Shown in pieces: positions 13,886-27,226 of a DNA stretch of 43,525 nucleotides (within the stretch, counting starts at the first letter, position 1; every line of letters begins with the position of its first letter). The position numbers and the translations under genes are program-made. Below the pieces are notes generated by a model. That model worked only from the letters and a program-made list of their open reading frames with translations, ran no database searches and had not been told where the DNA came from. Origin of the DNA: Candidatus Oleincola secundus. Its GTDB lineage: Bacteria > Atribacterota > Phoenicimicrobiia > Phoenicimicrobiales > Stramentimicrobiaceae. The DNA lies in the NCBI GenBank assembly GCA_018400815.1, contig JAGYLS010000009.1, positions 1-43,525 on the forward strand. The letters are read 5' to 3'.

Positions 13886-14042
13886 TTAGTTTTTTGTTTT
13901 TAGAAAAAATCAAGAACTCAGGATGTTTGGATTATTGGAATATTGCAATTTTGGCTCTTTATTAGGTTTTAGTGTTATACGATGTACCATATATGAATTT
14001 TTCACCCAATACGCACGACGCAATACTTATTTGTCATTGCGA
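13886..14042 (+). repeat. ~160-bp direct repeat, copy 1 (left of AAA ATPase gene)
   Basis: Matches 15457-15619 except for one T in a T-run and a 7-nt CAATACG unit that is extra in copy 2. Confidence 0.95.
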
Positions 14043-14066
14043 GGAGCGCAGCGACGAAGCAATCTC
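14033..14066 (+). repeat. REP/RPE-like palindromic unit GTCATTGCGAG...CGAAGCAATCTC
   Basis: gtcattgcgaggagcgcagcgacgaagcaatctc; ATTGC/GCAAT arms; variant at 15733-15769. Confidence 0.7.
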
Positions 14067-14141
14067 ATCCAATTATACTTGCATATTATAACTATGATTA
14101 TAAACAATTTTGACTATTTTCTAGTCTATTCGAAAAAAGTC

Positions 14142-15456: not shown

Positions 15457-15619
15457 TTAGTTTTTGTTTTTAGAAAAAATCAAGAACTCAGGATGTTTGG
15501 ATTATTGGAATATTGCAATTTTGGCTCTTTATTAGGTTTTAGTGTTATACGATGTACCATATATGAATTTTTCACCCAATACGCAATACGCACGACGCAA
15601 TACTTATTTGTCATTGCGA
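15457..15619 (+). repeat. ~160-bp direct repeat, copy 2 (right of AAA ATPase gene)
   Basis: See copy 1. Followed by degenerate ~20-26-nt units ending CTCCC and a second REP-like unit at 15733-15769. Confidence 0.95.
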
Positions 15620-16540
15620 TAAGTTCTTTTCTCCCTACCGTTGCACAGATACTTCTCTCCCGTAATTACGATTATTCTCCCTGCCTTTGCACGGACATTC
15701 CCCTCCCGTCATTGCTAGGTTTTATTTTTTTTGTTATTGCGAGCCAATTTTAATTGGCGAAGCAATCTCATCCACTTATAAAATAGTATCGAGTATGTAG
15801 TAAAAGAAATTTAAAAATAGCAATCATTATCAGTTTTCTTTATTCACAAGCTATCTTCTCATCTTTTAACTGCTTCTTAATTCTCCTGATCCACTTTAAT
15901 GATTCCTGCCTGGTCAGGGCATTTGTTTTTATCTTTTGATAGTAAAAACAAAAGGTGTCTATAATTGAAAAATAACACCCCGCTAAATTGATAATAGAAT
16001 GATCTGATTAACCAGGATAATCAAATCACTTTCTTTATGCCAGAATAATCACCTATGGCCGAAGGAGTATTTGTGGCTTTAGGGGTTTGTTCAGGACAAT
16101 AATTTTATCCGGGTTACTTACCATGAGCTGTTTTAGCAAAAAATAAAGTTGTCAATAATAAAGATTTGACCCCCTATTCCTTCTTATCCGGAATTATTAA
16201 ATTTTTGGTCTTTTTATTGGATATATTTTGCTTTTTATTCATAATTGTTGAAATATGAATATTTATAAACTTTTTTATTTTAACATTAAAAATAAGTCCT
16301 CTCAAGTTTTAGTTTTTTCATGGTAATTGGCCTCACCTGTCAAGGCCTAACCCCAATCCCTCTATAGGAGGAAGAAATTCACCTACCAGGAATTATCTTA
16401 TCTCAGTTGACAAAAGCTGCTAAAGGAGGCAAATGATTGAAAATTATTGTTTTACATAAAATTTACAGAAAATTGATTGTTGTTTTACTTTTCTTTGTTA
16501 TTGTTTAACCAGTAGAAAATTAAAAAAGGAGGAATATTTT

Positions 16541-20645: not shown

Positions 20646-20840
20646 GTGTCAGGTTTTGGAGGAAACCATCGGAGTCATCTCTTGTATTATAAGTTTTAAG
20701 GTACTATATTTATTTCTAACTAAATAAAGAAATAAACTAACGAAATTCATTAGCTTATATTTTGCGGGTATAAGGGGATGAGATTGTTTAGTCACTTAGT
20801 TCTTTGTAATGGCGTAGGGGGGTGGCAAGAAAACAAATGT

Positions 20841-21340: not shown

Positions 21341-21382
21341 ACAAAAAACCCCTTTAGTGGTAATGCTAAAGGGGTTTTTTGT
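21341..21382. terminator. Bidirectional Rho-independent terminator
   Basis: acaaaaaacccctttag...ctaaaggggttttttgt. Confidence 0.85.
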
Positions 21383-21383
21383 T

Positions 21384-21777
21384 TTTAACCATTACTACCA
21401 GCTTTTTTGAAGGTGGTAATGGTTAAATAAAATGGTTTTACCAGAAAGACAATAGATATACTACCTGAAATATTTTACCCGAGGTCCTAAAAAGAGACAA
21501 TATCATAGTGCTTAATAGGTTCGGAATATCAAATAAAGCGATACGATGAAGCACTATGATCTCTTAATTAAGACCCAAATATATACGAAGTTAGATTTTA
21601 AGATTAAGCATAGTATCCCAGGGGGTTCTTAATGGGAAGGATTCTCTTTGAATATCCTGGAAATAATCGTTTAGAAGATGGATAAGAGACAAAAGCAGAG
21701 AAAAAACTGTCTAATAAAAACTTAAGCCCTTTTTAGAGGCTTCTTAAGGCCAGCCGCTTTGCGGGTGCGGTATTTAG
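21384..21777 (+). mobile_element. Non-autonomous/decayed IS200/IS605-like element, copy A
   Basis: Left hairpin ttaaccattac...gtaatggttaa shared with copy D. Right double hairpin 21724-21777 shared with B, C and D. Interior blocks shared with B. Confidence 0.7.
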
Positions 21778-21980
21778 TTGGGATAGTCAGTCAAAGAAAA
21801 AAATATAAAAGCAAAAAAGTATTTATTTCCAGGAAGATTCTTTGCCTATCGACAGGGAAATGAAACTAGGTTATAAGAATACTAGAAACCCTATGGAAGA
21901 AATGTAAGCAGGTAGTGATTTGTATTAAGTTGCTTAAAATTATTAAGGTGTTGAAATTACAAACTTATATATTATTTCAT

Positions 21981-22009
21981 TTGACGAAGATTTTAAATTA
22001 TAATACAAT
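21981..22009 (+). promoter_or_regulatory. sigma70 promoter for tRNA-Arg-tadA
   Basis: TTGACG-17 nt-TACAAT. Confidence 0.65.
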
Positions 22010-22054
22010 CTAATTTAGCTTTAAACTAAGAGTAGGTTGTATTCCTTCATAAAT

Positions 22055-22131
22055 GCGCCCGTGGCTCAATTGGACAAAGCAACTGACTACGGATCAGTAG
22101 ATTGGGGGTTCGAGTCCCTCCGGGCGCACCA
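22055..22131 (+). tRNA. tRNA-Arg(ACG)
   Basis: Acceptor GCGCCCG/CGGGCGC, anticodon ACG at 22089-22091, GTTCGAGTC, encoded CCA; 77 nt. Confidence 0.96.
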
Positions 22132-22194
22132 TATAACTAACAAAAAATCCTTAAGAATTAATGTGTATTACGAAATAGCAAAAGAGCAAAAGTA

Positions 22195-22659
22195 ATGGTA
22201 GAAGATATTAATCAGATAATGATGAAAACAGCACTTCAGTTAGCTTGGGAAGCTTATGACCAGGGAGAAGTGCCCGTTGGAGCGATAATTGTATTGGAAG
22301 GTAAAATTATTGCCCGTGCTTTTAATAAGAAAGAAACATTACAGGACCCTACTGCCCATGCTGAAATTCTAGCTATACAGGAAGCATGCAGATATTTAAA
22401 CAGCTGGCATCTGGATAATGCGACTATCTATGTTACTTTAGAGCCTTGCCCCATGTGTTCTTATGCCATTATTCAAGCCAGGTTAAGAAGAATTGTTTTC
22501 GGTGCTTATGATCCTAAAGCCGGTGCTGCCGGGAGTGTTGTCAACTTATTTAAAAAAAAGCTGTTTAATCATGATATGGAAGTAATTGGTGGTATTTTAG
22601 AAGAGGAATGCGGAGCCATATTAAAAAAGTTTTTTCAAAATAGAAGAAGATTAAGATAA
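22195..22659 (+). CDS. tadA: tRNA adenosine(34) deaminase
   Basis: GEVPVGA, DPTAHAE, TLEPCPMC, DPKAGAAGS, FF..RR C-terminus. Confidence 0.95.
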   Translation: MVEDINQIMMKTALQLAWEAYDQGEVPVGAIIVLEGKIIARAFNKKETLQDPTAHAEILAIQEACRYLNSWHLDNATIYVTLEPCPMCSYAIIQARLRRIVFGAYDPKAGAAGSVVNLFKKKLFNHDMEVIGGILEEECGAILKKFFQNRRRLR

Positions 22660-22689
22660 CCTTAATAATAATTTATTTTTAAACCTGCA

Positions 22690-22784
22690 GGAGAGGTGGC
22701 CGAGTCCGGTTGAAGGCGCTCGACTCGAAATCGAGTAGGCAGCTAATCCCTGCCTCGCGGGTTCGAATCCCGCCCTCTCCGCCA
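22690..22784 (+). tRNA. tRNA-Ser(CGA)
   Basis: GGAGAGG/CCTCTCC acceptor, CTCGA-CT CGA AA-TCGAG anticodon arm, long variable arm, GCCA end. Confidence 0.96.
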
Positions 22785-22873
22785 TTTTGAGTATCAAAAC
22801 ATCCCCCTCAAATTGATTCACTATTTTAAGAGATACATAGAAATATTATTTTTAAATAAAAGGGAGAAAAAAC

Positions 22874-22975
22874 ATGGATTATGTTGTTTATCTTGATGCA
22901 AAAGCAGGAGAGTTGGATAATTTATTATCTGGCAAGAAAACAATGATTATCCGTGGAGCTGCAGGTAGGAACTAA
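22874..22975 (+). pseudogene. 33-aa probable gene fragment (MDYVVYLDAKAGELDNLLSGKKTMIIRGAAGRN), ASCH/PUA-like N-terminus
   Basis: AGGGAG RBS; GKKTMIIR resembles the ASCH GxKxxExR motif; stops early. Confidence 0.55.
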
Positions 22976-23029
22976 TTTTTATTCAATAATTTATTCATGA
23001 TGTTTTTTTAATAAATCAGGAGATTTATC

Positions 23030-23683
23030 ATGTTTTTTGAAGATAAAAATATTAACAGTCGGTGCCCATTATGTAATGGGGAAAAACATGTTTATCATAG
23101 AGAGGGTAAGCGGACTTATTACCAATGTAAAAAATGTGACAGTATTTTTCTGGATGAGAATTATCGTCTTTCTCCAGAGGCAGAAAAAAAACGATATTTA
23201 GAACACAATAATGATGTTAATGATGGCAGATATCAAAATTTTGTGAAACCGATTACTTCAGCAATTTTAAGTGACTTTAGAAGTCATCATGCAGGGCTTG
23301 ATTATGGTGCCGGCACCGGACCGGTTATCACTAAAATCCTAGCGGATTATTCTTATAATATGAAAACTTATGATCCCTATTTTCATAATTATCCTGATTA
23401 TTTAAAAGAGAAATATGACTATATTGCTTGTTGCGAGGTTATAGAGCATTTTTATCATCCTTACAATGAATTCAAAAAGTTAAGAAATATGCTAAAAGAG
23501 AATGGAGCTTTATATTGCCAGACAAACATTTATAAAGATAATATTAATTTTAAAGATTGGTATTATAAGAACGACCCAACCCATGTCTTTTTTTATACTA
23601 AGAAATCAATTAATTGGATTAAAGAGAGCTTTGCTTTCAGTGATATAACTATCAAAGATAGACTAATAATTTTTTGGAATTAA
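23030..23683 (+). CDS. Class I SAM-dependent methyltransferase with N-terminal Zn ribbon
   Basis: CPLC...CKKC, LDYGAGTG, EVIEH, WYYKNDPTHV. Confidence 0.88.
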   Translation: MFFEDKNINSRCPLCNGEKHVYHREGKRTYYQCKKCDSIFLDENYRLSPEAEKKRYLEHNNDVNDGRYQNFVKPITSAILSDFRSHHAGLDYGAGTGPVITKILADYSYNMKTYDPYFHNYPDYLKEKYDYIACCEVIEHFYHPYNEFKKLRNMLKENGALYCQTNIYKDNINFKDWYYKNDPTHVFFYTKKSINWIKESFAFSDITIKDRLIIFWN

Positions 23684-23705
23684 GTGAACATTAAACTACA
23701 AAAAA

Positions 23706-23887
23706 TATATTTTTCCTGCTAAAATATTTTATCTGAGGTTCCAAACAGAGATAATATTGCTTGGAAATAATTGGAAAGCACCGTTTGGAAACTAGATAAG
23801 AGAAAAGAACAGGAAAATGGCTAAATTAAAGATAAGCCTCTTTTAGAGGCTTCTTAAAGCCACCCGCTTTGCGGGTGCGATATTTAC
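23706..23887 (+). mobile_element. IS200/IS605-like remnant, copy B (interior fragment plus intact right end; left boundary approximate)
   Basis: aaatattttatctgaggttccaaacagagataatat resembles copy A ~21468-21503. End reads AAAG-CCACCCGC-TTT-GCGGGTG-CGATAT-TTAC. Confidence 0.7.
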
Positions 23888-24056
23888 TACTGTTATTTAG
23901 CAACTGATTATATACGATATTTATTCGGTCAGGAAAATGTCTATTTTTTTGACATCAGGCAGTTAAGAATATATATTAAAGGCAATTAATCATTTTGATT
24001 GATGTGTTAAATAGCATGTTAAATATAAATTAAAAGAAAAGAGAGGAAGTATTTTT

Positions 24057-24416
24057 ATGCCCTGGGTAAAAAAAGAAGATTGTGTTGGCTGTGGAATATG
24101 TGTCGATAAGTGTCCTGTTGGATCAATTGCTTTAAGGGATGGAGTAGCATCTATTGATATGACCAGTTGCATCCATTGTGGAGTTTGTCACTCTGCATGC
24201 CCTAGAGGAGCAGTTGAGCATGACAGTGAGAAAATACCGGAAGAAGTAAGGGCGAATGTGGCCAAAACAAAAGGTTTTATGGAAGATTGCGCTAAATATC
24301 TTGGTGAGGAAAAAGAAAAACAGAAATGTCTTAATAGGATGATAAAACATTTTAATAAAGAAAAAATCGTTGTCGAAAAAACATTAGAAAAATTAAAGCT
24401 GCTTACAAATAATTAA
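24057..24416 (+). CDS. 2x[4Fe-4S] ferredoxin-domain protein with C-terminal helical extension
   Basis: CVGCGICVDKCP and CIHCGVCHSACP. Confidence 0.9.
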   Translation: MPWVKKEDCVGCGICVDKCPVGSIALRDGVASIDMTSCIHCGVCHSACPRGAVEHDSEKIPEEVRANVAKTKGFMEDCAKYLGEEKEKQKCLNRMIKHFNKEKIVVEKTLEKLKLLTNN

Positions 24417-24463
24417 GATGACTAGTCTGCCGTAAAAATTTTAAAGATAAAATTGAGCGTTTT

Positions 24464-24808
24464 ATGATTATTAGAAAATTATCAGAAATGCCTATCATGA
24501 AAAATGCACACAATGTAGATGCAAGGAGTATCTATAATTCAGAAAATGCAGTAATTTCTGTAATCACTTTAAAACAGGGACAATCTTTAAAAAAACATAT
24601 TACGCCGGTGGATGTAGCTTTTTATGTTTTAAGAGGCAAAGGTGTAGTGGAGATAGGAAATGAAAAACAGGCTGTTGAAGCCCAAACTTTAATTGAGAGT
24701 CCTAAAGATATTGTGCATTGCTGGTACAATAAAAACGAAGAAGAACTGGCTTTTATGGTTATCAAGGTACCCAGGCCCAGTAGAGAAACTAAGTTTATTT
24801 CACAGTAA
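24464..24808 (+). CDS. Cupin-2 domain protein
   Basis: LKKHITP...FYVLRGKG...IESPKDIVH. Confidence 0.88.
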   Translation: MIIRKLSEMPIMKNAHNVDARSIYNSENAVISVITLKQGQSLKKHITPVDVAFYVLRGKGVVEIGNEKQAVEAQTLIESPKDIVHCWYNKNEEELAFMVIKVPRPSRETKFISQ

Positions 24809-24955
24809 ATATCGTACCCGCAAAGCAGGTGGCTTTAAGAACCCCTAAGAGGGGTTAATTCTCTGTTTACTTTTAGTTAACCTTTTTTCTACTATTTTAA
24901 CTGAATATTTACAAGTAATATAACTCTTTTAGATTTCAGATGAAAAATGATCATA
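24805..24955 (-). mobile_element. IS200/IS605-like remnant, copy C (inverted; outer boundary approximate)
   Basis: Reverse complement reads aacccctcttaggggttcttaaagccacctgctttgcgggtacgatatttac. The terminal TTAC overlaps the cupin stop codon. Confidence 0.7.
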
Positions 24956-25085
24956 TGGATTATCTTGATATTTTTATGGTTAAATAAATAAAAGATATTA
25001 TTTACATGACTATTGTAAATAATAATATTATAAATATTATTATATTTTAAGGCTATTGACAAACAATATAAAAAAGGGATTAAGC

Positions 25086-25619
25086 ATGAAATCTTTAGTG
25101 ATATATAAATCTAAAACAGGTTTTACAAAAAAATATGCCGAGTGGATAGCTGAAAAGCTGTCTGCAGACCTTTATGATTATAATCAAATAAACAAAGAAT
25201 TATTTAAAGGTTATGATGTTGTAATCTATGGTGGAAGTTTGCATGCTGTTGGCATTGAAGGGATTAAGCTAATTAAAGATAATCTGGATATTTTAAAGGG
25301 TAAAAAAGTTGTTGTATTTGCGGTAGGCGCAAGCCCTTTCCGGGAAGAAACTGTAGAGGAAGTTAAAAACAATAATTTTAACAAAGAACAATTGGAGCAG
25401 ATTCGGTTTTATTATCTTCGTGGGGGTTTTAATTACAACAAACTGCCTTTTTTTGATAAGCTGTTAATGAAATTACTGCAATGGAAATTAAAGCGCAAGA
25501 AAGTTCTGACAGCTGATGAAAAAGGAATGCTGAATGCCTACCAGAAACCGGCAGATTTTAGTCGTAAGGAAAACATTGATAGTATTGTTGCCTATGCTAG
25601 TTCATCTGAAAATAAGTGA
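25086..25619 (+). CDS. Flavodoxin-domain protein (HemG/Flavodoxin_5-like)
   Basis: VIYKSKTGFTKKYAEWIA, YGGSLHA, FAVGASP, YLRGG. ATG 25086 preferred over TTG 25056. Confidence 0.85.
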   Translation: MKSLVIYKSKTGFTKKYAEWIAEKLSADLYDYNQINKELFKGYDVVIYGGSLHAVGIEGIKLIKDNLDILKGKKVVVFAVGASPFREETVEEVKNNNFNKEQLEQIRFYYLRGGFNYNKLPFFDKLLMKLLQWKLKRKKVLTADEKGMLNAYQKPADFSRKENIDSIVAYASSSENK

Positions 25620-25708
25620 TGACTGATTTAATGAATAGGCTTATATGTATCAAATAAAGCGAAAACCTACCGGTAATTGATTACCAATTATCTTTCAGGA
25701 GTAAATTT

Positions 25709-26383
25709 ATGATTATGCCTTATGCCAGGTCAATTCAATATGATGGTCTGATGGAAGAATTGTCCCGTGAGATTGAATCTCACGGGCATTTTCCGTTAAT
25801 GAATCAGATGAAGAGAGAAGGGGAATATCCATATCGCATATTAATCAGTACTGTTATGTCATCCCGAACCAAAGATGAAGTAACTGCCAGGGCATCAGAA
25901 AGATTATTTTCAAAAGCACCTGACCCGGAAAGACTATCCCTGATGTCAGAAGAGGAGATTGCCAATTTAATTTACCCTGTAGGTTTTTATCGGGTAAAGT
26001 CAAAAAATATCAAAAAAATTGCCGAACTGATTTTAAAAAAATACAGGGGAAAAGTGCCGAATACGCTGAGTGATCTAATCCAACTTCCCGGTGTAGGTAG
26101 AAAGACAGCAAATTTAGTATTAGGTATCGCTTTTAACATAGACAGCATAACTGTAGATACTCATGTTCACCGAATTTCGAATCGCATTGGCCTTATCAAA
26201 ACAAAAATACCCCAGGAGACTGAGCAGGATTTACAGATAGTATTGCCGAAAAAATATTGGATTTATTTTAATACACTTTTAGTTGCCCATGGTCAGATTA
26301 TTTGCAAGCCGATATCCCCATTATGCTCTCAATGTAAGATTGTTAGTTATTGCCAACGAATCGGAGTTAACAGAAGCAGATAA
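25709..26383 (+). CDS. nth: Endonuclease III
   Basis: HhH LPGVGRKTA, VDTHVHR, C-x6-C-x2-C-x5-C Fe-S motif. Confidence 0.93.
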   Translation: MIMPYARSIQYDGLMEELSREIESHGHFPLMNQMKREGEYPYRILISTVMSSRTKDEVTARASERLFSKAPDPERLSLMSEEEIANLIYPVGFYRVKSKNIKKIAELILKKYRGKVPNTLSDLIQLPGVGRKTANLVLGIAFNIDSITVDTHVHRISNRIGLIKTKIPQETEQDLQIVLPKKYWIYFNTLLVAHGQIICKPISPLCSQCKIVSYCQRIGVNRSR

Positions 26384-26558
26384 TCGAAAAAAAACAAAAT
26401 TATTCTTCAACATTTACTGATTGTTTATATAATTTGATAATGTTTAATCTAAATATAATTTATTTTGCTAGTAGCTTTTTTATCAAAAATGTATTACAAT
26501 ATTAAACTGTCTTTTGTTACTATTTTTAAAGAAATATAAAGGGAAAAAATTGCTTCAG

Positions 26559-26587
26559 TTGACAGGATGATTTGTCTTGTCTATCAT
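26559..26587 (+). promoter_or_regulatory. sigma70 promoter for tRNA-Ser(GGA), probably also for SRP RNA
   Basis: TTGACA-17 nt-TATCAT. Confidence 0.7.
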
Positions 26588-26600
26588 AAATAAAGGAGTA

Positions 26601-26694
26601 GGAGAGGTACCGAAGTGGTCATAACGGGATCGCCTGGAGAGCGATTGGGCGGCCAAAAGCTGCCTCGCGGGTTCGAATCCCGCCCTCTCCGCCA
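26601..26694 (+). tRNA. tRNA-Ser(GGA)
   Basis: ATCGC-CT GGA GA-GCGAT anticodon arm, long variable arm, GTTCGAATC, GCCA end. Confidence 0.95.
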
Positions 26695-26703
26695 TAATTC
26701 GTA

Positions 26704-26946
26704 ATTTATTTAACCATAAAAACCCACCTTCTAAGAAGATGGTAATGGTTAAATAAATGGGTTGTACATAAAAAAGTTAAGAGTAGCTAGATGACAATTT
26801 TTCACCTGAAGTACAAAGTTGGAAGTACTATTGCTTAAGAAATATTATAGCTAAAGGTTAAATAAAAAATTGAAAGAAAAAGAGCTAAAAAGTTAAACCT
26901 CTTTAGAGGTTCTTAAAGCCACCCGCTATGCGGGTGCGATATTTAT
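26704..26946 (+). mobile_element. Non-autonomous IS200/IS605-like mini-element, copy D (~240 bp)
   Basis: Left 14-bp IR atttatttaaccat...atggttaaataaat. Right end aacctctttagaggttcttaaagccacccgctatgcgggtgcgatatttat. Confidence 0.7.
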
Positions 26947-26954
26947 TTGAAAAG

Positions 26955-27226
26955 ATGATCGTGCTAGACGGGGAGTTAGCGGTGCCCTGAACCTGCAATC
27001 CGCTACAGCAGGGTCGAATGCCTACCTGAGGTCGTATTTTTTCAAGGTCTGACTGAAATAAGTGGCGATGAAAGCCGGGTCCTATGCAGCAAAGAATTGC
27101 GAATCCCGTCAGGTCCGGAAGGAAGCAGCGGTAAGCAAATCTCTTTGGGTGCCGTAGGTAAACCTGGTTGGAGTTAACTGTTTCAATATCGCTTGGGAGA
27201 ATAGATCGAAGGTAGGGCACGATCAT
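26955..27226 (+). ncRNA. ffs: Large bacterial SRP RNA with Alu domain
   Basis: Terminal helix atgatcgtgc/gcacgatcat, Alu-like gtgctagacggggag..agcggtgccctg, helix-8 tcaggtccggaaggaagcagc; lies upstream of dnaX. Confidence 0.95.

What the first reader, a model, noticed from the sequence alone, without database searches (positions are those of the whole stretch)
21384..26946. Four copies of a structured IS200/IS605-like non-autonomous element in 5.5 kb: conserved ends, eroded bodies
Seen: a ~55-nt double hairpin at 21724-21777, 23834-23887, 24805-24858 (inverted) and 26895-26946. Hairpin 1 covaries: GCCTCT/AGAGGC (B), ACCTCT/AGAGGT (D), ACCCCT/AGGGGT (C). In B, hairpin 2 reads AAAG-CCACCCGC-TTT-GCGGGTG-CGATAT-TTAC. 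Copies A and D also share a left hairpin (ttaaccat...atggttaaataa). Interiors differ in length (A ~395 bp, D ~240 bp). Known: IS608 ends consist of a guide tetranucleotide, a hairpin and a cleavage tetranucleotide, and AAAG is the guide for TTAC; TnpB omega-RNAs derive from such right ends. Inference: a PATE/REP-like family mobilised in trans by a Y1 HUH transposase, or a domesticated structured DNA/RNA whose ends are under selection, each followed by a different 3' flank that could act as a guide.
Basis: partly seen in the sequence, partly recalled or inferred. Interest (0 to 1): 0.72.

Follow-up and report, generated by a model that had tools for sequence, protein, structure and literature searches.

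The report
Gene-less copies of an IS200 transposon
The four repeats are stripped-down copies of a small jumping gene (an IS200 insertion sequence) with about 90 relatives between the genes of this Atribacterota genome; they were likely spread by a transposase made elsewhere and now appear to be decaying, a well-known kind of element and not a guide-RNA system.

Summary
The four copies belong to a family with 91 right ends in this 2.0-Mb Atribacterota genome, none inside an ORF of 100 aa or more. Boundaries are TTTAT|TT...TTTAC|T. Empty alleles exist and keep the target once, with no duplication.

A gapped metagenome scan found the autonomous parent: 60 of 62 loci hold a Y1 transposase between the same ends. 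It is a ~570-bp, tnpA-only IS200 element, intact in sister-family genomes but not found in this assembly. 'Hairpin 1' is the parent's last codons (Gly-Leu-Phe-stop) plus 3' UTR.

The parent has no tnpB, so the omega-RNA idea lacks a basis. Ends are not conserved after insertion (20% versus 17% interior divergence in orthologous pairs). Copies lie mostly on the G-rich strand (68 of 80), as peel-and-paste insertion predicts.

One oddity: the left end gained a 13-bp arm that pairs with the target site. Copies without the guide or hairpin appear only as scattered tips.

Verdict: PATEs, a new member of a known kind. The scan reached the same reading before on another genome (e1-4518158).

The parts
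21385..21777 (+). Copy A, 393 bp, longest subfamily. Left end is a guide-less near-perfect palindrome; right end ends TTTAG; target relic TGTTT at 21380-21384, just behind a terminator of the RRM gene.
   Evidence: present in G001, absent at this site in G002, G007 and G013
23719..23887 (+). Copy B: right end with intact AAAG-hairpin-TTTAC plus part of an A-type body; no left end found. The left limit is approximate (first match to A).
   Evidence: (D13, D16)
24805..24983 (-). Copy C, 179 bp. Left hairpin deleted between ACCATAAAAA repeats; its right end supplies the TAA stop of the convergent cupin gene (24464-24808). Target TTTAT at 24988-24984.
   Evidence: the G001 copy with the same left flank keeps the hairpin and guide
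26710..26946 (+). Copy D, 237 bp, complete left end with AAA[AC] guide, right end ending TTTAT; inserted between tRNA-Ser(GGA) and the large SRP RNA gene.
   Evidence: empty in G001 and in one contig of run X1
26705..26709 (+). TTTAT target (left cleavage site) of copy D, retained outside the element
23834..23852 (+). 'Hairpin 1' (shown for B): relic of the parent's tnpA 3' end, GGC CTC TTT TAG = Gly-Leu-Phe-stop, plus 3' UTR
23856..23887 (+). Right-end module (shown for B): guide AAAG, subterminal hairpin CACCCGC/GCGGGTG, terminal TTTAC
   Evidence: role inferred from IS608

Best explanation
These are gene-less deletion derivatives (PATEs) of a 570-bp tnpA-only IS200 insertion sequence of Atribacterota, likely mobilised in trans by its Y1 HUH transposase through single-strand peel-and-paste and now apparently mostly dead. 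Shown: same ends as the parent, fixed boundaries TTTAT|T and TTTAC|T, empty alleles without duplication, strand bias, intergenic location. Inferred from IS608/ISDra2: TnpA binds the left hairpin (CCACCTTC/GAAGGTGG) and the right hairpin (CACCCGC/GCGGGTG). The left guide AAAA pairs with TTAT and the right guide AAAG with TTAC. A single-stranded circle is excised and inserted 3' of TTTAT, preferring T at +1, on the lagging-strand template. After insertion, copies decay by point change, by microhomology deletion and, likely, by arm-to-arm copying in the left hairpin. Ends look conserved among paralogues because only copies with good ends were copied.
For: Parent: 60 of 62 loci of the gapped scan carry a Y1 tnpA between the ends. 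57 have both ends, 49 distinct left flanks, 26 intact ORFs, and T after TTTAC in 53 of 57. TnpA scores NF033573 151.8 bits (cut-off 55) and PF01797. Full-length copies at 94-97% identity lie in 3 sister-family genomes, each 570 bp with these ends. Boundaries in G000: TTTA in 53-60 of 61 per column on the left, random beyond; T after TTTA[CT] in 76 of 83 on the right, random beyond. Empty sites: D in G001; a G001 copy with TTGAT left, TTTAA right and TTGAT in the empty allele rules out a duplication. Orientation: 68 of 80 on the G>C strand against 949 of 2139 for intergenic TTTATT; 0 of 91 inside ORFs of 100 aa or more. Decay: nearest-neighbour identity median 89.5%, maximum 94%; guide-less and hairpin-less left ends need 13 of 13 and 12 of 12 separate changes on the tree. 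IS608 also prefers the +1 base that matches its own first base (PMC5934647, passages).
Against: No cognate tnpA in G000 (86% complete; best hit 38%, an IS200 with other hairpins) or G001. In the PATE-rich family only broken pieces were found, in G003 and G007, so the enzyme that did the amplifying is not in hand. Interiors align to tnpA only weakly (z 1.8-3.6 for the two longest copies, about 0-2 for most short ones; best six-frame E 0.31), so derivation of the middle from tnpA is not shown. Several other sites lacking the element in G001 are too degraded to read as clean empty alleles. The strand bias follows local gene direction as well, so selection on transcription cannot be separated from replication. 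The tree is star-like with 11 of 48 branches well supported, so scattered labels are weak evidence.
Confidence: 0.9

Rival explanations
1. The copies were spread by a non-cognate resident Y1 enzyme, either the C133 IS200 TnpA or one of the RAYT-like 250-330-aa proteins, after the cognate gene was lost from this family.
For: Cognate tnpA not found intact in any of 22 family genomes, while copies are abundant in several. The C133 IS200 sits directly behind a family right end, and its hairpins share CCACC/GGTGG. RAYT-like genes are common in the family.
Against: C133-type elements have their own hairpins and ends in five genomes. Family ends were found beside only 1 of the 32 Y1 loci held (L001). 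Broken cognate genes exist in G003 and G007. No copies closer than 94% remain, which fits amplification before the gene was lost. Repeated IS are often missing from MAGs.
Confidence: 0.15
2. Some or all copies are domesticated as cis-acting terminators or as small RNAs from the left end, like the 5'tnpA RNA of Salmonella IS200.
For: All copies are intergenic, and the gene upstream points the same way in 60 of 79. Hairpins score as terminator-like. Family sequence occurs in contigs of RNA libraries, some joined to tRNA-Ser. Precedent: PMC12594629 (abstract). 11 of 22 testable sites are shared with G001.
Against: In orthologous pairs the right end differs at 69 of 345 positions, the left end at 44 of 328 and the interior at 143 of 825 (p 0.28 and 0.11), all above flanks (70 of 677). 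17 of 68 copies have lost the left hairpin. The RNA data are contigs, which show neither ends nor strand.
Confidence: 0.1
3. Each copy encodes a TnpB omega-RNA scaffold whose guide is the 3' flank.
For: PATEs of tnpB-bearing elements often encode omega-RNAs (PMC10055086, passages). One tnpB fragment exists in G000.
Against: The parent has no room for tnpB (543-578 bp, tnpA only). PF01385 was found in 0 of 21 relatives. The G000 tnpB and IscB-like pieces lie on contigs C35 and C147, which hold no family right end. The sequence upstream of hairpin 2 is tnpA's stop region, and interiors range from 59 to 400 bp. No Rfam match at the four copies.
Confidence: 0.03

Closest known systems
PATEs (palindrome-associated transposable elements) of Haloquadratum walsbyi (PMC3119063, passages read)
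   Same: No terminal inverted repeats, near-terminal palindromes shared with an IS200/IS605 parent, no target duplication, too short for a transposase, heterogeneous bodies, repeat-mediated core deletions giving terminal-only copies (here 59-81 bp), hit by other mobile elements.
   Different: Parents there are IS605/IS1341-type (tnpB-bearing); here the parent is tnpA-only IS200, in a bacterium, and the left end has a 13-bp outer arm pairing with the target.
IS608 of Helicobacter pylori and ISDra2 (PMC5934647 and PMC6006769, passages read)
   Same: Y1 HUH TnpA (parent matches PDB 2a6m, ISHp608 transposase, E 1e-21), guide tetranucleotide 5' of each hairpin, same pairing code, preference at +1, lagging-strand bias, extra stem 3' of the left hairpin.
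   Different: IS608 uses AAAG/TTAC on the left and GAAT/TCAA on the right and carries tnpB; here AAAA/TTAT left, AAAG/TTAC right, no tnpB.
SMN1 of Sulfolobus islandicus (PMC3718332, one passage read)
   Same: About 320-bp non-autonomous element dependent on a trans-acting transposase (ISC1733; its IS200/IS605 membership is recalled).
   Different: SMN1 mobility was observed; here activity is inferred and looks past.
PATE-like omega-RNA elements of Geobacillus stearothermophilus (PMC10055086, passages read)
   Same: Gene-less elements with shared left and right ends, mobilisable in trans.
   Different: Those derive from tnpB/iscB elements and can encode omega-RNA; this family's parent has neither gene.
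REP/REPIN-RAYT systems (PMC6006769 passages; PMC3333891 and PMC3337134 search listing)
   Same: High-copy intergenic palindromes with a guide tetranucleotide and an HUH Y1 enzyme.
   Different: The partner is a multi-site mobile IS200 TnpA (REP model 30.5 bits, cut-off 80), the two ends are distinct and direct, and there is a fixed target.

Membership tests
PATE (non-autonomous IS200/IS605 derivative) | Near-terminal palindromes at both ends, no terminal inverted repeats | tested here: met
   A and D have both, C lost the left one after insertion, B has no left end
PATE (non-autonomous IS200/IS605 derivative) | Ends shared with an autonomous IS200/IS605 element | tested here: met
   60 of 62 loci with Y1 tnpA between the same ends; parent profile hits all four window copies, E 1e-12 to 3e-6
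PATE (non-autonomous IS200/IS605 derivative) | No transposase gene | tested here: met
   59-400 bp; best six-frame hit to the parent TnpA profile E 0.31
PATE (non-autonomous IS200/IS605 derivative) | Insertion 3' of a fixed 4-5-nt target without duplication; empty alleles | tested here: met
   two clean empty alleles, others degraded
PATE (non-autonomous IS200/IS605 derivative) | Mobilised in trans by TnpA | not testable with these tools
   needs a cleavage or excision assay; cognate gene not found in this assembly
IS200 group (parent element) | Single tnpA with HUH motif and catalytic Tyr, no tnpB | tested here: met
   147 aa with HIH and YV.YQ; NF033573, PF01797; 543-578 bp
IS200 group (parent element) | Guide tetranucleotides complementary to cleavage sites by the IS608 code | tested here: inconclusive
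   AAAA/TTAT and AAAG/TTAC fit the code, but guide and site do not covary among G000 copies and a one-base-shifted register (TAAA/TA.T) also fits the sequence
OMEGA (TnpB omega-RNA) element | Parent or partner encodes TnpB | tested here: not met
   parents with a spacing outside 470-530 nt were not searched
OMEGA (TnpB omega-RNA) element | Conserved covarying scaffold upstream of the right end | tested here: not met
   own pair counts, no R-scape or covariance model
OMEGA (TnpB omega-RNA) element | Discrete transcript ending 15-20 nt past the right end | not testable with these tools
   only assembled contigs were offered
REP/REPIN-RAYT | Repeats flank a REP-associated tyrosine transposase gene | tested here: not met
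   no family end beside any RAYT-like locus held; parent TnpA below the REP cut-off

The most novel reading that the evidence does not exclude
The miniature out-multiplied its parent (about 90 copies against 1-2 per assembly) because its left end gained a 13-bp arm (ATGGTTAAATAAA) complementary to the target plus its own first 8 bases: 12-13 of 13 matches in 42 of 50 copies against 5-9 of 13 in all 57 parents. Such an arm would bury the bases 3' of the hairpin in the circle and fold over the cleavage site once inserted. That makes it a naturally evolved lock that allows insertion but hinders excision, standing in for the retention role of TnpB in an element that never had it.
Probability: 0.12. 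Interest if true: 0.55.

Novelty: new member of a known kind. Interest (0 to 1): 0.22.

Why it matters
As a class this is ordinary: PATEs are described. Its value is as a clean case in an uncultured-rich phylum, with parent and miniature paired, target and ends defined and decay routes visible. It also shows that compensatory changes in such hairpins can come from inheritance and, likely, arm-to-arm copying, not RNA selection. The target-pairing left arm gives a small testable question: how does a tnpB-less element persist and outnumber its parent? I found no paper on this family in one search that included Atribacter (no listed paper held the term); paywalled papers, ISfinder and supplements were not seen.

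Tried and rejected
1. A register shifted by one base (TAAA guide with TA.T sites) was my first reading (note 1). I dropped it in favour of TTTAT|T and TTTAC|T after the empty sites, the parent and the IS608 +1 preference; sequence alone cannot exclude it.
2. A 5-bp target duplication was rejected: left TTTAT/TTGAT does not match right TTTAC/TTTAA.
3. The adjacent C133 IS200 as parent was rejected: different hairpins, 38% TnpA identity.
4. IS91/Y2 partner: PF04986 in 3 of 22 family genomes, none in G000. IscB: only pieces on other contigs. TnpB.
5. Viral contigs: 0 matches to the right-end pattern.
6. The 26 genome-contig loci held no tnpA.
7. Hairpin-less type-C copies as an amplified subfamily was rejected: most G001/G007 type-C copies and C's own counterpart keep the hairpin.
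8. Interior as eroded tnpA: weak, not established.
9. RNA runs share only 5-13% of words and are contigs: no evidence on transcript ends, strand or level.
10. A wide-gap pattern over the phylum could not be run, so longer (tnpB-bearing) parents remain unsearched.
11. Literature searches on IS200 terminators (0 papers) and template switching (nothing relevant) added nothing; template switching as a mechanism is from my own knowledge.
12. No covariance model or R-scape test was run.
Full report
Observation. Limits: A 21385-21777, B right end to 23887, C 24805-24983 (minus), D 26710-26946. Neighbours are ordinary genes: an RRM protein, a deaminase, a methyltransferase, a 4Fe-4S protein, a cupin, a flavodoxin and an HhH-GPD protein, with three tRNAs and the large SRP RNA. 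Rfam matches nothing at the copies.

A genome-wide family. Iterated profiles find 91 right ends and 66 left ends in the 2.02-Mb assembly, and none in a locally shuffled copy. 68 of the 91 could be paired with a left start; they run from 59 to 400 bp, most 230-260 bp. None of the 91 lies inside an ORF of 100 aa or more. Copy D matches 25 of 41 genomes searched, G000 included: 15 of 21 in the family, 9 of 19 in the sister family. An exact right-end pattern gave 26 loci in the species-level genome collection, 24 titled Atribacterota or Atribacteria, and 0 in viral contigs.

Boundaries and target. On the left, conservation starts at TTTA (57, 60, 53 and 54 of 61) and is random beyond. On the right, 83 of 91 ends could be anchored; they end TTTA, then C 57 or T 20, then T 76, then random. 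D is absent in the same-genus genome G001, where the site reads TTAAT followed by D's right flank. One contig of run X1 skips the same 237 bases. A G001 copy has TTGAT on the left, TTTAA on the right and TTGAT in the empty G000 allele. So the target stays on the left once and the right terminus belongs to the element: no duplication. Other sites lacking the element are too degraded to read. The simplest register is TTTAT|TT...TTTAC|T, with guides AAAA and AAAG directly before the two hairpins. IS608 uses the same pairing code and also prefers the +1 target base (PMC5934647, passages). A register shifted by one base cannot be excluded from sequence.

The parent. Resident Y1 genes did not explain the family: family ends lay beside only 1 of 32 Y1 loci held, an IS200 with different hairpins inserted behind a right end. 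A pattern demanding the left hairpin arm and the right hairpin 470-530 bases apart gave 62 metagenome loci. 60 of them encode a Y1 transposase in between; 2 are chance matches. 57 have both ends, are 543-578 bp long, sit in 49 distinct left flanks, and 26 have an intact 147-aa ORF by a strict test. T follows TTTAC in 53 of 57. The protein is an IS200/IS605 TnpA (NF033573 151.8 bits, cut-off 55; REP model 30.5, cut-off 80) related to solved transposases including ISHp608. It is intact at 94-97% identity in 3 of 30 sister-family genomes. In the window's family only broken pieces were found, in G003 and G007; the best hit in G000 is 38% and G001 has none. The parent profile aligns about 90 bases of the right part of A and B. 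The middle of the copies aligns to tnpA only weakly. A separate 239-bp deletion derivative with parent-type ends occurs in G085.

No guide-RNA system. The parent carries no tnpB. PF01385 matched 1 of 22 family genomes, only G000 contig C35. That contig and C147, which hold the IscB-like pieces, carry no family right end. Hairpin 2 has 0 two-sided changes in 90 copies (585 unchanged, 23 G-T, 22 broken cells). Hairpin 1 has 15 in 71 copies, 11 of them the G-C state that 54 of 56 parents have; C's C-G pair is unique. Mirrored private changes occur in the left stem in 3 copies, including one that mirrors the target itself. This points to arm-to-arm copying (inference) and weakens covariation as a sign of selection. 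Of 25 sites compared with G001, 11 share the element, 11 lack it and 3 could not be placed. In the shared ones the right end differs at 20%, hairpin 1 at 16%, the left end at 13%, the interior at 17% and flanks at 10%. Caveat: some shared sites hold bodies of different subfamilies, as at B, so these pairs are not all simple orthologues; that would favour apparent end conservation, and none was seen. RNA-library contigs contain family sequence but cannot show ends or strand.

How it likely works. Shown: shared ends, target, empty alleles, strand bias. 68 of 80 copies on contigs over 8 kb lie on the G>C strand, against 44% of intergenic TTTATT sites, and 70 of 80 follow the majority gene direction. 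This fits insertion into the lagging-strand template (PMC6006769, passages), but it cannot be separated from selection on transcription. Inferred: TnpA in trans peels the top strand at TTTAT| and TTTAC|, circularises it and pastes it 3' of a new TTTAT. The family looks old in G000: nearest neighbours are 89.5% alike at the median and 94% at most. Of 68 left ends, 35 keep the guide, 15 have become guide-less palindromes, 17 lack the hairpin and 1 is unclassed. On a tree of 51 bodies the two damaged classes need 13 of 13 and 12 of 12 changes, as dead-end tips would, though the tree is poorly resolved. C's counterpart in G001 keeps the hairpin, so C lost it after insertion.

The one unusual trait. 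The copies' left end matches its downstream arm at 12-13 of 13 positions in 42 of 50 copies, target included, against 5-9 of 13 in all 57 parents. In IS608 a second stem buries the bases 3' of the left hairpin and limits extended target pairing. The arm here may be a neutral product of palindrome copying, or a lock that hinders excision; this is untested.

Comparison and verdict. The family meets every PATE feature I could test (PMC3119063, passages; PMC7290912, passages). It works like an IS608-type element without its gene, and it fails the tests for an omega-RNA element and a REP-RAYT system. Earlier notes of this scan reached the same reading on another genome and noted a group II intron in one copy here. 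I confirmed the intron's position and its reverse-transcriptase ORF. New member of a known kind; interest 0.22.

Noticed in passing
G000:C192:1876-3932 (minus): A group II intron-like insert (starts GTGTG, 474-aa frame with YADD) lies just 3' of the left hairpin of a family copy.
   Followed up: partly
L001:1389-1930 (G000:C133): An IS200 with its own hairpins and an open tnpA is inserted directly behind a family right end; related elements occur in G003, G015 and G019.
   Followed up: partly
window 26694-26959: Copy D separates tRNA-Ser(GGA) from the SRP RNA gene, which lie about 25 bases apart in G001; its left hairpin could affect co-transcription.
   Followed up: no
window 23719-23887 and L074: G001 has an element with the same right flank as B but a D-type body, suggesting conversion between copies or a second insertion at the same target; similar at C137:13025 and C137:32322.
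   Followed up: partly
window 24805 and L054: G001's counterpart of C shares the left flank but has another right flank; a rearrangement at the element end is possible.
   Followed up: no
genome-wide: In 6 of 68 copies a host gene's stop codon lies in the target/left end or in the right end, as for the cupin gene and copy C.
   Followed up: partly
G000:C181:1970-2156: One left hairpin has been made symmetrical the other way, with the 3' arm carrying the complement of the A-run.
   Followed up: no
window 13891-14091, 15461-15780, 20755-20811: A second repeat family: a 132-nt direct repeat (98%) and palindromic GTCATTGCGAGG...GAAGCAATCTC-type copies (D1, D14, I2, I8).
   Followed up: no
G000:C1, C35, C147: Large contigs without the family, one of them 88 kb at 27% GC; C35 holds tnpB and IscB-like pieces. 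They may be co-binned viral DNA.
   Followed up: no
L002, L003, L028-L047: RAYT-like Y1 proteins of 230-345 aa are widespread in this family; most showed no strong flanking hairpin in my scan.
   Followed up: partly
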